This document shows positions 51,379 through 56,342 of a DNA stretch of 64,000 bases, piece by piece. The DNA comes from the human T2T-CHM13v2.0 reference genome, Homo sapiens. The first letter of the stretch is position 1, and every line of letters starts with the position of its first letter. A program made the translations under genes and the position numbers. The stretch is from the NCBI RefSeq assembly GCF_009914755.1, contig NC_060943.1. The stretch is one strand, 5' to 3'. The notes beneath the pieces were generated by a model that did no database searches, had not been told where the DNA came from, and saw nothing but the letters and a program-made list of their open reading frames with translations.

Positions 51379-52662
51379 TGAGCCGTCACACCCAGCTGGA
51401 CCCGTTTTTATGAAGAATTTTCTGACATAAGCACTTCTCCAGATTCCTGAAGGCCTCCTTACCTTCACAGATGCGCCTCTCAGAACAAAATAGAAAATAC
51501 TCACCAGACTCTTTTCTGCTCCCAGGATGGTGGGCTCAGTGTGAAGGTTATAACAGCCAGTATATCTGTGAGAGGGAGACAGCCAGGCCCTGAGATAAAG
51601 GTTTGTGATTCTGCGACCTCACCTCCCCGAAGAACCACAGTTATTAGTTTACCTTTAGCAAAATTGCAGTGCATGCTAGGAAAGTCAAAAATATTTTTTC
51701 TAATAATTTGTTTCCATTCTCAATTACCAGAAACAATTACAGTGTCTAGTGAGCATCTCCAAAGAGACTAATGCAGTATTTAGAAGAGGCTTTTTTATTT
51801 CCATGGACCCTGGAAGCAGACAGGGGCTCAGGTGGAGAGTGCAGGACACGCTGAGGTCTGAGCCATGAGGGACTCTCAGCAAATTGTACACCTCACGCGA
51901 CCTTCTGCTTCCTTGAGTTCTGCTCAAAATCTAACTTTTTCCTGACTCTGAGAACCATATGCTTCCAGACCCCTTCTAGATTATGGGAAGGCAAATGGGA
52001 TACCATGAAGAGACCAAGAAGGATCTATTAATGCACTAAGAGTGAAATGAAGAATGTGATGTCAATAATTGATAGTCTGAAACATTAAATGGCACTTTCT
52101 GATATACATGAATGATTAAATAAATAATTGGGAGATAAGAGACCCAACTCCTATGCAGAAAAATTCCAAATAACTCTTGTAGACACTCCACCTCCAAGGA
52201 GGTGGAATACACATAACTCCCAACTCCACAAATGCAGGCTGCACAGTGCTGCTTCCTTTTAAACAATACAATATGGCAGGGAGAGAATGTGAGGATTTTT
52301 ATAGCTGAGAAACCTGACAGACACAGCCTCAGACAGGTGATCAAGGTTGACATCCAAAGGGGATTAAGTAATGTTAATAGTATACACCTTTGATAGGATG
52401 TGATAAAAATGGCACTTCTCATTGGTTTTTCTCCCCAGTATACTTAACCTTTGTCTAATCATGGAAAACATCAGACAAATCCCAATAGAGTGGCAGTCCC
52501 CAATAACACATTGACAGCCCTGCTACCTAACCAGTACTCCTCAAAGCTGACCAGGTTATAAAAAACAAGAGTCTGAGAATCTGTTAGAGCCAAGGGGAGC
52601 CTAAAGACACATAATGGTTAAATCTAATGTGGTGGCCTGGACAGGATCCTGGCAGAGAAAAG

Positions 52663-53081
52663 GTCAGGGAGCCGAAGGCCTGTGGGACGTGACCAACTCA
52701 GCATTCCTCTGGAGGCTATATGATCAAACAGCAAACTGTTTATCAAGAATGCAGGATATGGGCAAACTCACACTTCCCTGCCACCAAAAGGTTTGCTGAG
52801 GGACATGTCTCCCTTGCACCGGGCTCCTTGAAGTTATCTAATGAGAAATCTAGCACCTATTATTCAAAGGATGCAGTCTTGCAAGCCTGCTGTGAACCAA
52901 ACGGCTGACTGACAATTACCTGACAATCACCCTGCCTTTCTCGCTCTCTCTTTTGCCTAATAAATATGGAGGGCTGTGTAAAGCTCAGAGCCCTTGTCCA
53001 CTAGAGGCAAATATACTCTCTTGTCTTTTATTTCCACATTTGCCCCCTTTGTTCAATCCCCCTAGGTCCATGTGGGTTACA
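52663..53081 (+). mobile_element. LTR3 (HML-6 5' LTR)
   Basis: GGGAGCCGAAGGCC.GTGGGACGTGACCAACTCAGCATTCC...GGAGGCTATATGATCAAACAGCAAACTG; ends GGGTTACA just before the PBS. Confidence 0.85.
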
Positions 53082-53083
53082 AG

Positions 53084-53101
53084 TGGCGCCTGAACAGGGA
53101 C
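53084..53101 (+). promoter_or_regulatory. Primer-binding site, tRNA-Lys3(UUU)-like
   Basis: TGGCGCCTGAACAGGGAC versus canonical TGGCGCCCGAACAGGGAC. Confidence 0.9.
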
Positions 53102-55486
53102 AGAATTGGGTGCTTTATAAGTGGCATCACGAAGTGGCACCCTGAACAGCGACAGTGGCATCCAAACTCGGGACTATGAGGACATAAACGAAGAAGGTCT
53201 GCTGGAGCAGAGGAACTGAAATTGACAAGGTGAACAAGGACCCCGGGACGAGTCTGCCAGCAGCGGATATAAGGTCAGTGCCCTAAAGAGGTACTGGGAG
53301 CAGTGCTTTAAAGAAGTACTGGGAATGGGAAGTTTTCTGAATCAGGGTAACAAGGGGAATAATTTGTCTATTGAAGAAACATTATTTGCAGTTGTAAAGT
53401 TCTGTTGAGACAGTCTGCAGCTCAGGTTAATTTGCAGACACTAACTAACCTCCTGCAGAAGCCCCAAAAAGCTATTATGCGTAACCCATGGTTTCCACAG
53501 GCAGGCACTCTTGATGTGGAAAACTGGGATAGAGCAGGAGATGGATTGAAACAGGCTCATCAAAAAGGTTTTAAAGTTGATTCTTCAGTTTTTTCCACTT
53601 GGAGTTCAGTTTGTACTGTATTTCTGCCATTATCATCTTCTTATTCTGTGGGACAGCAAGCTGAATCTAAAAATCTGAAAGAATATGTTGCTCTACCCAC
53701 AGCTCCAATTGAAAATAAAAAACAGGAGAAGGAGGATAAAAATTGGGCTATACAGCCTCCTCCAATTGCAGAAACATTTGTACCACCTCTTTCGGTGGCA
53801 GAAATAAGAGACCCTAATACAAAGAATTTTATGCTCTGCTGTCATAGCTGGAGAGCCCTTAGGACCTTGCACTTTTCCTATTTCCGTAAGACCTGATCCA
53901 TATAATCCACAGCAGTTTATTCATGAACACACCCCACTAGAATTTAAGTTGTTGAAGGAATTAAAAACTAGTGTGGTCAATAACGGAGTACAAAGCCCAT
54001 GGTTCCTGGAGGAAGGAATGCTAGACGTAGAACTCTGAGAACAAGTGAGGAGAAATCTTAACATCAGGCGCAAAGGCATCAGGTCCAATAAAATCTTTAA
54101 TGTTACGGGCTTTAATTAGATCAGCCTTTGCTCAGTTACACACAGAAGAGCCTAAAAAGAGGAAGGAGGAGAAAACATCACTTGCCTTATCACCTCCTCT
54201 TCCCTCAGCCCCAGTATCATCAGGCCAAAATAACAAAGAGGAAATGGAAGTCTTACCTAAGCCTCCTCTTCCAATAGATAGGACAAAGGACAGAGGATAC
54301 ACTACAGCTATCAGTCCCTGTGTTAAGCAGGCAACATTAGAAGGAGAGCTCTTAACCTGCTCAGTAATGCAAAATCGGCAAGGCAATCAGGTGTATGTTT
54401 ATAAAAAGATAAGAAAAAACGCATTAGAAGCCGAAACTGCGCAGCCAAGCAGGCAGTAGGTGGAAGAAAAGGCTCAGCAGCAGAAAAGCTCCCGGTAACC
54501 AAGCCGACAAGGCCTGCCCAGGCTGGCAACATCCCCCTGGCAAAGGAGGGAGGGACCGGCGCAGACACAGGCAAAGCCTAAGAAAGTACAACATGGCTGC
54601 CTCCCAGGACCTGCACCGCTGCCCTCTGGCTCTGTGGGCAGCCCGTAGCAAAATTTCATGTGTTACGTCCCAGGCTATGATTCTCTGCTAAGATTTAAGT
54701 AAAATGTAAGAATTTGAAAAACCTGCTTTCTAATAATGGTCACTGTTGTTACCTCTCTTCTATCCCTGACGTAGCTTTCCAAATTCAATTTAAGTAAAAT
54801 AGTAACCTCTGAAGGGAGAGAGATTACAGAGGGCCCATGAATTAGTTAAAGAGTAATTAAAAGCTAGGCATGTAAAACCACACATTACTCTTTAAAGGAG
54901 AACTTTAAACCTAATTAAATGGTATTTGTTAAATTAAAAGGTAAAAATGCTGTGCCCTTCTCAGAAAGTGAAGAAAAGTTGTATGTAAGTGTAGTGAAAA
55001 ACTTATGCATGAATGACTGTCTTAACCCACTGATTACAGATAGTCTTTGATTTGTGCTTGCTAAAAGAGTCCTAAATTGAGTTCTCCAGCTATGGAGTCA
55101 CTGTTTTCAAGACTGTTTGCCAGATTAAACTCCATAAACTTGGTCACATCCCACGGGCCTTCAGCTCCCTGCAGAAAAGAACATGAGTTAAAACCAAAGA
55201 AATCAGAATAAATTATGAATAAGTTGATGGTAGTATATCAACAATGGTTTATAAACTGTAAAACCCATACAAAACTAGTATAAGATGTTAATAATAGGGA
55301 AAACGGGTCAGGGTATATGGAACTTGTCTACCTTTTTTGAATTTTTTAAATATAAATCTATAAATCTTCTAAAATAAAGTGTATTAGTTTTTTAAATAAC
55401 TAATTTAGGCCGGGCTTGGTGGCTCACGCCTGTAATCCCAGCACTTTGGGAGGCCAAGGCAGGTGGATCACGAGGTCAGAAGTTCA

Positions 55487-56342
<856 letters not shown>

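What the first reader, a model, noticed from the sequence alone, without database searches (positions are those of the whole stretch)
52657..55179. HML-6 retroelement with two U3 ends: a 34-bp terminal inverted repeat inside a perfect 6-bp TSD
Seen: there is no 3' LTR. Instead, 55140-55173 reverse-complements to TGCAGGGAGCTGAAGGCCCGTGGGATGTGACCAA, matching the first 34 nt of the 5' LTR at 29/34 positions, and the three internal mismatches are all CpG transitions. GAAAAG flanks both ends exactly, and the interrupted L1M continues seamlessly. Established: betaretroviral integrase makes a 6-bp TSD and normally joins one U3 and one U5 end. Inference: this DNA integrated through two U3 att sites. 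One route is a short PPT-primed plus-strand fragment jumping through CCAA/TTGG microhomology to prime minus-strand synthesis in env. The result is a retroviral fossil with DNA-transposon-like TIR architecture, possibly an overlooked class.
Basis: partly seen in the sequence, partly recalled or inferred. Interest (0 to 1): 0.8.

Follow-up and report, generated by a model that had tools for sequence, protein, structure and literature searches.

The report
Retroviral fossil with two U3 ends
A truncated HML-6 endogenous retrovirus in a ZNF610 intron was inserted through two copies of the same (U3) end of the viral DNA, and two more such insertions elsewhere in the genome show that this replication accident recurred.

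Summary
At 52663-55173 lies a 5' LTR, a Lys-type primer-binding site, partial gag and a 1.1-kb internal segment. It ends in the reverse complement of the first 34 nt of the LTR, and GAAAAG flanks both sides. Eleven paralogous copies of the interrupted old repeat carry one copy of that hexamer. Nine related loci share the internal sequence up to TTGGTCA (55140-55146) and then continue into pol and a normal 3' LTR. The window instead turns into inverted U3, so the junction is a 7-nt microhomology.

Integration through two U3 ends is the best reading. Two more HML-6 insertions have the same architecture:
- chr11, 233 nt of inverted U3, 8-nt microhomology, 6-bp duplication with one CpG change.
- chr3, a full LTR plus about 350 nt of inverted LTR, perfect 6-bp duplication.

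No element with U5 at both ends was found.

I favour two PPT-primed plus strands annealing 3'-to-3' and extending each other; that step is inferred. A mutant MoMLV provirus reported in 1988 is an experimental precedent. I found no germline fossils of this kind in print. The element is a dead-on-arrival by-product, not a new mobile class.

The parts
52380..52656 (.).
   Evidence: 40 matches at 67-79% identity from 446 candidates; paralogs continue directly into the right flank.
52657..52662 (.). Left copy of the 6-bp target-site duplication, GAAAAG
   Evidence: A single copy is present in 11 of 11 paralogs that have both flanks adjacent.
52663..53081 (+). Complete 5' LTR (U3-R-U5). It starts GTCAGGG, where other copies have TGCAGGG, and ends GGTTACA.
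   Evidence: 47 genomic matches at 80-90% identity; both ends aligned to other copies.
53084..53101 (+). Primer-binding site TGGCGCCTGAACAGGGAC, two bases after the LTR
   Evidence: the same position holds TGGCGCC/TGGCACC-type sites in other copies. The assignment to tRNA-Lys is recalled, not tested.
53066..53273 (+). U5, PBS and leader stretch annotated as an alternative ZNF610 exon, with AG before 53066 and GT after 53273
   Evidence: Hub annotation plus the sequence (cctag|gtcc and taag|gtcagt).
53375..54038 (+). Decayed gag: matrix-like p10 and the first residues of capsid p24
   Evidence: Gag_p10 at E 1.5e-12. Gag_p24 N-terminal part at E 6e-5, 23.4 bits against a curated cut-off of 24.
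54001..55139 (+). Internal segment shared only by a subgroup of HML-6-like loci; no recognisable domain on either strand
   Evidence: 30 of 46 other rows stop at 54000; 9 other loci at 84-93% identity; no Pfam hit; absent from the 1.5 kb that follows gag in typical copies.
55140..55146 (.). Junction microhomology TTGGTCA. It is both the last bases shared with relatives and the reverse complement of LTR nt 28-34.
   Evidence: 6 of 6 relatives diverge right after it (4 read TTGGTCA, 2 read TTGATCA); 9 of 9 loci end at this base.
55140..55173 (-). Inverted copy of LTR nt 1-34 (the U3 terminus), ending ...CCCTGCA at the host junction
   Evidence: 94% identity to the 3' LTR start of L027, E 1e-8.
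55174..55179 (.). Right copy of the 6-bp target-site duplication, GAAAAG
55180..55400 (.). Right flank: continuation of the same old repeat, followed by an Alu from about 55406
   Evidence: for the repeat. for Alu-type matches from 55406.

Best explanation
This is a dead-on-arrival HML-6 (betaretrovirus-like) insertion whose linear DNA carried the U3 terminus at both ends. Integrase joined both U3 ends to the host in one concerted reaction, which made the 6-bp duplication. These points are shown by the sequence: a U3 terminus ending in CA abuts each copy of the duplication; the host repeat is otherwise uninterrupted; and the inner junction is a 7-nt microhomology between an internal site and LTR nt 28-34 in inverted orientation.

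The route is inferred. During reverse transcription, two plus strands both started at the polypurine tract, so both began at U3 nt 1. One was a 34-nt nascent strand. The other had already run through LTR, PBS, gag and the internal segment. Their 3' ends annealed over TTGGTCA/TGACCAA and each was extended on the other. The result was a blunt duplex with an authentic U3 end on each side.

The same scheme, with different strand lengths, accounts for the chr11 element (233 nt and about 2.35 kb) and the chr3 element (about 350 nt and a full LTR). The product has no 3' LTR, pol or env, so it could never replicate.
For: 1) TSD and host continuity.
2) The right arm is the LTR start. Each arm differs from a natural copy (the L027 3' LTR start) only at CpG sites, apart from the left arm's first two bases.
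3) Exact breakpoint with 7-nt microhomology: 6 of 6 relatives aligned; 9 of 9 loci end at 55146.
4) A normal family member (chr1 provirus) has a 6-bp TSD, CTCACT.
5) Recurrence. L065 (chr11) has LTR-PBS-gag up to the dUTPase domain, then the 8-nt microhomology CTTGCAAG, then inverted LTR nt 1-233. Its flanks are TGCGTG and TGTGTG, and its arms are 91% identical. Two of 2 paralogs fit a single target copy. L064 (chr3) has a full LTR plus inverted LTR nt 1 to about 350, a perfect TCTTCA duplication and arms 93% identical. Five of 5 paralogs have one copy of the target.
6) In L063 (chr20), an inverted LTR+PBS joins internal sequence at GTCCCTGT. [quoted passage not shown] This fits a plus strand acting as primer.
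7) Precedent: the title of Colicelli and Goff, J Virol 1988 (a MoMLV provirus with inverted LTRs, 'integration utilizing two U3 sequences') was seen in a reference list.
Against: No orthologous empty site could be examined, because only this genome is held. The single-copy target is inferred from paralogs at about 70% identity.

The left arm now begins GT, not TG, which requires two substitutions at the very terminus.

Nothing in the sequence separates an RT-stage event from host end joining of two viral DNA pieces before integration. Nothing tells which strand primed on which.

The chr3 junction has about 7 nt (TAGTAGA) that I could not assign, so it is not a clean microhomology.

L063 has no left LTR and no TSD, so it supports only the priming idea.

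The 1988 paper itself was not held. What I say of its content beyond the title is recalled.
Confidence: 0.7

Rival explanations
1. The two-U3 DNA was made by host microhomology-mediated end joining, not by reverse transcriptase. A broken linear viral DNA (left end to TTGGTCA) was joined to a 34-bp left-terminal fragment of another viral DNA in inverted orientation, and the chimera was then integrated.
For: The junctions of 7 and 8 nt are also typical of alternative end joining. The outcome (two U3 ends plus a TSD) would be identical.
Against: It needs two breaks and a 34-bp fragment that stays with integrase. The L063 junction sits exactly at the 3' end of strong-stop DNA, a natural polymerase primer end rather than a random break. 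All three inverted parts begin precisely at U3 nt 1.
Confidence: 0.15
2. A normal provirus was integrated and later rearranged by an inversion or fold-back repair with deletion, which removed pol and the 3' LTR and left an inverted U3 piece.
For: Internal inversions of proviruses do occur. L063 may be one.
Against: A later rearrangement would have to break exactly at the provirus-host boundary, leaving U3 nt 1 abutting an intact second copy of the TSD. Fold-back copying would instead run on into the inverted left flank, whereas the right flank continues the host repeat in register. The same coincidence would have to have happened three times.
Confidence: 0.07
3. Two independent HML-6 insertions in opposite orientation, later trimmed by deletions.
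For: HML-6 copies are dense in the chr19 zinc-finger clusters.
Against: Only one 6-bp duplication brackets the whole structure. The host repeat loses nothing. The inner junction is a clean microhomology with no second TSD and no host DNA between the parts.
Confidence: 0.03

Closest known systems
[quoted passage not shown]
   Same: An integrated retroviral DNA with U3 termini at both outer ends, joined by integrase with a host duplication.
   Different: That was a laboratory isolate of a gammaretrovirus with whole LTRs inverted (and, as I recall, from an att-site mutant). Here the cases are germline fossils of a betaretrovirus-like ERV. The inverted part is only 34 nt (233 and about 350 nt in the other two), it is joined at a microhomology, and the duplication is 6 bp.
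Ordinary HML-6 provirus or solo LTR
   Same: The LTR, PBS and gag are homologous, and the 6-bp TSD matches the chr1 provirus.
   Different: There is no 3' LTR, pol or env, and the right terminus is U3 in reverse rather than U5.
HIV-1 proviruses with asymmetric LTRs or inversions (Joseph et al. 2022, PMC9278108; passages read)
   Same: Defective proviruses ascribed to template switching during reverse transcription that are still integrated.
   Different: In the passages read, those keep a U5-side 3' end with deletions in U3/R. None was described with U3 at both ends.
5'-inverted LINE-1 insertions (twin priming; recalled, and the category is named in the abstract of PMC2912911 listed)
   Same: A microhomology-guided second priming event during reverse transcription yields an inverted segment inside one insertion bracketed by a single TSD.
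   Different: That is target-primed reverse transcription on the chromosome with no integrase. The inverted part is the element's 5' portion, not a terminal recognition site.
Cut-and-paste DNA transposons with terminal inverted repeats
   Same: Terminal inverted repeats of 34 nt inside a short TSD.
   Different: There is no transposase. The junction is unique in the genome. The three elements have different internal ends, and the repeat is a by-product of plus-strand DNA synthesis.
Guppy foamy-like ERV noted as having 'inverted LTR' (PMC5210030; one sentence read)
   Same: It may be the same kind of product in another retroviral genus.
   Different: It is a one-line remark. The passage gives no junction, TSD or mechanism.

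Membership tests
HERV-K(HML-6), betaretrovirus-like class II ERV | LTR and gag homologous to other members of the group | tested here: met
   LTR with 47 matches at 80-90% identity; gag with 47 matches. One matching locus (C3:46442842-46443678, 86%) lies where the published HML6_3p21.31c (hg38 chr3:46426676-46433564, PMC8275748) is expected. That link is inferred across assemblies.
HERV-K(HML-6), betaretrovirus-like class II ERV | Betaretroviral gag domains (p10 matrix-like, p24 capsid) | tested here: met
   Gag_p10 at E 1.5e-12. Gag_p24 fragment at E 6e-5, just under the curated cut-off. A typical copy, L017, has p24 N and C, zinc knuckles, dUTPase and protease.
HERV-K(HML-6), betaretrovirus-like class II ERV | PBS complementary to a lysine tRNA | not tested
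   TGGCGCCTGAACAGGGAC is present at 53084-53101. The match to tRNA-Lys is recalled; no tRNA was aligned.
HERV-K(HML-6), betaretrovirus-like class II ERV | 6-bp target-site duplication | tested here: met
   GAAAAG on both sides. The chr1 provirus of the family has CTCACT on both sides.
Complete provirus (5' LTR-gag-pro-pol-env-3' LTR) | A 3' LTR in direct orientation ending in U5 | tested here: not met
   no LTR homology after 53081 except the 34 inverted bases.
Complete provirus (5' LTR-gag-pro-pol-env-3' LTR) | pro, pol and env present | tested here: not met
   no such domains in 54000-55173; the downstream parts of relatives are absent from the window.
Provirus integrated through two U3 ends (as in the MoMLV case of 1988) | The U3 terminal sequence, ending in CA, abuts host DNA on both sides in inverted orientation | tested here: met
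   The right end is ...CCCTGCA|GAAAAG. The left end is GAAAAG|GTCAGGG, with its first two bases changed relative to other copies.
Provirus integrated through two U3 ends (as in the MoMLV case of 1988) | A host duplication of the length typical for the virus, with nothing lost from the target | tested here: met
   11 of 11 paralogs with adjacent flanks.
Provirus integrated through two U3 ends (as in the MoMLV case of 1988) | Whole LTRs in inverted orientation | tested here: not met
   Only 34 nt are inverted here, against 233 nt and about 350 nt in L065 and L064.
DNA transposon with terminal inverted repeats | Many copies sharing the same termini and internal junctions, moved by a transposase | tested here: not met
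   the junction 21-mer occurs once; hits at up to 3 mismatches number 42 against 33 for the control. The three elements have different junctions.

The most novel reading that the evidence does not exclude
Insertion through two U3 ends is a regular minor outcome of retroviral replication. It has left an unrecognised layer of fossils in ERV families generally, where current annotation reads them as 'provirus lacking a 3' LTR plus a stray antisense LTR fragment'. In HML-6 it accounts for at least 3 elements among roughly 160 LTR 5' regions scanned, and no U5/U5 counterpart was seen. If so, these fossils record plus-strand priming errors and show that a betaretroviral integrase did not need a U5 end in the germline.
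Probability: 0.45. Interest if true: 0.7.

Novelty: new variant of a known kind. Interest (0 to 1): 0.58.

Why it matters
- It is natural, germline evidence that a retroviral integrase can complete concerted integration with two identical (U3) ends.
- The fossils preserve the exact junctions of an aberrant reverse-transcription product (7-8 nt microhomologies; one partner starts at U3 nt 1). That makes the frequency and route of such errors countable from genomes.
- For annotation, 'provirus without a 3' LTR' is usually read as later deletion. Here the element was born that way, so LTR-LTR dating and recombination-based reasoning do not apply.
- The inverted U3 stub is easy to miss or to misread as a second insertion.
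- The U5-leader part of this dead element now supplies an alternative ZNF610 exon.

Tried and rejected
- **Env breakpoint:** rejected.
- **A second break at LTR nt 34-48:** the scan gave 108 hits, 100 listed, control 5. Among the 36 exact hits, only the window's right arm leaves the LTR; 34 continue normally and 1 has a small deletion. Patterns ending in G at the last place were blind.
- **U5/U5 counterparts:** none of the LTR-type hits (62 hits, control 7) breaks off. One odd hit was fetched and proved to be chance. No divergent LTR pairs within 10 kb appeared (100 of 162 listed; 85) or 72 (90). This is a weak negative. Short inverted U5 stubs elsewhere in U5, and the 62 unlisted rows, were not seen.
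- **L063 (chr20) as a fourth case:** its left end is missing and it has no TSD, so it is kept only as a lead.
- **Identity of segment 54001-55139:** there was no Pfam hit on either strand in 71 ORFs from the window and six relatives. There was no DNA or protein similarity to the 1.5 kb after gag in typical copies.
- **Prior print:** searches found no description of ERVs with U3 at both ends. Pisano et al. 2019 (the HML-6 catalogue) and Colicelli and Goff 1988 were not held, so the catalogue may already list this locus. Its text and supplements were not seen.
Full report
**What is there**

The stretch 52663-55173 is the only HML-6-like DNA in the 64-kb window. From left to right it holds the following.
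- A complete LTR, 52663-53081. It has 47 genomic matches at 80-90% identity, and its ends were aligned to other copies.
- Two spacer bases and the primer-binding site TGGCGCCTGAACAGGGAC, 53084-53101.
- A leader.
- Decayed gag. Gag_p10 scores E 1.5e-12. The first residues of Gag_p24 score E 6e-5, just under Pfam's cut-off.
- A segment, 54001-55139, with no recognisable domain on either strand.
- 34 bases, 55140-55173, that are the reverse complement of the LTR's first 34 bases.

GAAAAG lies immediately outside both ends.

**Is it more than chance?**

The arms match at 29 of 34 positions. Three mismatches are CpG transitions. The other two are the first two bases: the left arm has GT where the right arm and other copies have TG. 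Compared with a natural copy (the 3' LTR start in L027), the right arm differs at two CpG sites. The left arm differs at one CpG site plus the terminal dinucleotide. Two copies of one sequence decaying independently would look like this.

The chance of 29 or more of 34 at a fixed alignment is 2.4e-13. The chance of a 6/6 flank match is 2.4e-4.

The flanks belong to an old interspersed repeat (446 candidates, 40 scored). Of 29 paralogs fetched, 11 had both flanks adjacent. In all 11 the repeat runs straight through with one A-rich hexamer where the window has two GAAAAG. The other 18 gave no adjacent right-flank match, which is expected for copies at about 70% identity or truncated copies. A normal provirus of the family on chr1 has a 6-bp duplication, CTCACT. 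The duplication length therefore fits the family's integrase.

**The inner junction**

Nine other loci share the window's internal segment at 84-93% identity, and all nine alignments end at window base 55146. I fetched six of them. In all six the sequence reads ...CCATAAACTTGGTCA (TTGATCA in two) and then GCC(C/T)GAAAACTCAATTACAAG... The window instead continues CATCCCACGGGCC..., which is inverted U3.

TTGGTCA is also the complement of LTR nt 28-34. The bases on either side differ between the two partners, so the microhomology is exactly 7 nt. The 21-nt junction occurs once in the genome. At up to three mismatches there are 42 hits, against 33 for the reversed control.

**Where the breakpoint lies**

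It is not in env. In the relatives the breakpoint is followed by G-patch, RNase H, integrase core and integrase C-terminal domains, and then within about 150 nt by the polypurine tract and the 3' LTR. In L031 the integrase zinc-binding domain lies 441-770 nt downstream of the breakpoint. No env domain was seen in these relatives.

Most HML-6 gag copies match the window only as far as 54000 (30 of 46 other rows). After that point they continue with p24, zinc knuckles, dUTPase and protease. The window therefore belongs to a rearranged subgroup whose 54001-55139 segment I could not identify.

**Other elements of the same build**

I looked through LTR-motif scans for LTR starts that face each other, and through gag hits with an antisense LTR nearby. 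Two more elements turned up.

L065 (chr11) has these features.
- An LTR, PBS and gag collinear with a typical copy as far as the dUTPase domain.
- The 8-nt microhomology CTTGCAAG.
- The reverse complement of LTR nt 1-233, ending ...CTCTACA at the host junction.
- Flanks TGCGTG and TGTGTG, which are one CpG transition apart.
- Arms 91% identical.
- Two nearby paralogs of the flanking DNA with 10-11 nt where a single target copy predicts 12 and a double copy 18.

L064 (chr3) has these features.
- A complete LTR.
- About 7 unassigned bases.
- The reverse complement of LTR nt 1 to about 350.
- A perfect TCTTCA on both sides.
- Arms 93% identical.
- Five of 5 paralogs of the flanking repeat with one copy of the hexamer.

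Counts from the scans:
- LTR nt 28-69: 162 hits, of which 100 were listed.
- Poly(A) region: 85 hits.
- LTR nt about 80-110: 90 hits.

Convergent pairs within 10 kb were only these two. Among 36 exact hits of an LTR-start motif, only the window's right arm leaves the LTR after nt 34. That makes at least three such elements among roughly 160 LTR 5' regions. The figure is a lower bound from an incomplete search.

No mirror-image element with U5 at both ends was seen. That search was less sensitive.

**How it most likely arose**

Three things are shown directly.
- Both ends are U3 termini ending in CA, each joined to one copy of a 6-bp duplication.
- Nothing is missing from the host.
- The inner joins are 7-8 nt microhomologies between a plus-sense internal site and an inverted position inside U3/R.

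Later rearrangement of a normal provirus would have to break exactly at the virus-host boundary, three times over. Fold-back repair would copy on into the inverted left flank, which is not seen. Two separate insertions would leave a second duplication or some host DNA.

The simplest scheme, which is inferred, runs as follows.
1. Two DNA plus strands are each primed at the polypurine tract, so each begins at U3 nt 1.
2. Their 3' ends anneal over a short complementary stretch.
3. Reverse transcriptase extends each on the other.
4. The result is a blunt duplex with an authentic U3 end on both sides.
5. Integrase then inserts it.

The strand lengths would be 34 nt and about 2.5 kb in the window, 233 nt and about 2.35 kb on chr11, and about 350 nt and one LTR on chr3.

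A rearranged chr20 copy (L063) joins internal sequence to an inverted LTR+PBS at GTCCCTGT. [quoted passage not shown] This fits a plus strand acting as primer. However, that copy lacks its left end and a duplication, so it is only a lead. Host microhomology-mediated end joining of two viral DNA pieces before integration gives the same sequence and cannot be excluded.

**Comparison with what is known**

The title of Colicelli and Goff, J Virol 1988, describes a MoMLV provirus with inverted LTRs integrated through two U3 sequences. I saw it only in a reference list; the paper is not held, and its details are recalled.

HIV proviruses with asymmetric LTRs and inversions are ascribed to template switching (PMC9278108, passages). 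In the passages read, none has U3 at both ends.

One sentence in PMC5210030 notes a guppy foamy-like ERV with 'inverted LTR'.

Full-text searches found no description of ERV fossils of this build. The HML-6 catalogue of Pisano et al. 2019 was not held and may already mention this locus.

The resemblance to a DNA transposon is superficial. There is no transposase, each junction is unique, and no copies exist.

**Verdict**

The core interpretation, integration through two U3 ends at a microhomology junction, is well supported. The env placement is wrong. 'Overlooked class' holds as a recurrent replication accident rather than a mobile family. I rate it a new variant of a known kind, of moderate to good interest for retrovirology and ERV annotation.

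Noticed in passing
window 53066-53273: The alternative ZNF610 exon in the hub's annotation lies wholly inside the element, covering the end of U5, the PBS and the leader. It has an AG acceptor inside U5 and a GT donor at 53274 (taag|gtcagt), which looks like the retroviral leader splice donor.
   Followed up: partly
window 54001-55139; L027-L032: A subgroup of about 10 HML-6-like loci replaces canonical p24, NC, dUTPase and protease with a 1.1-kb segment that has no Pfam match on either strand. In L027 and L028 the integrase C-terminal domain is followed within about 150 nt by the polypurine tract and the 3' LTR, so these copies show no env.
   Followed up: partly
L063 (G000:C20:25690400-25693400), positions 1241-2348: Internal sequence in sense orientation (equivalent to window 53668-54321) is joined to an inverted LTR+PBS at GTCCCTGT, the complement of the PBS's last 8 nt. 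The left end is truncated and no TSD is seen. About 25 nt just upstream (1214-1238) resemble inverted PBS/leader (21 of 25).
   Followed up: partly
G000:C11:48792082/48792940 and C11:54655318/54656230: Pairs of same-orientation LTR 5' regions lie only about 0.9 kb apart, at two places that look like duplicates of each other. They may be tandem LTRs or a heavily deleted provirus.
   Followed up: no
window 55527-55592: A perfect tandem duplication of a 33-nt stretch (AAAATACAAAACTTAGCCAGGCATGGTGGCACG) sits inside an Alu downstream of the element (family D1).
   Followed up: no
G000:C19:54639797(+)/54655705(-) and C19:55007140(+)/55019173(-): Two further convergent LTR pairs on chr19 lie 12-16 kb apart. 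That is too far for my 10-kb criterion, and they were not fetched. They could be separate insertions or large examples of the same architecture.
   Followed up: no
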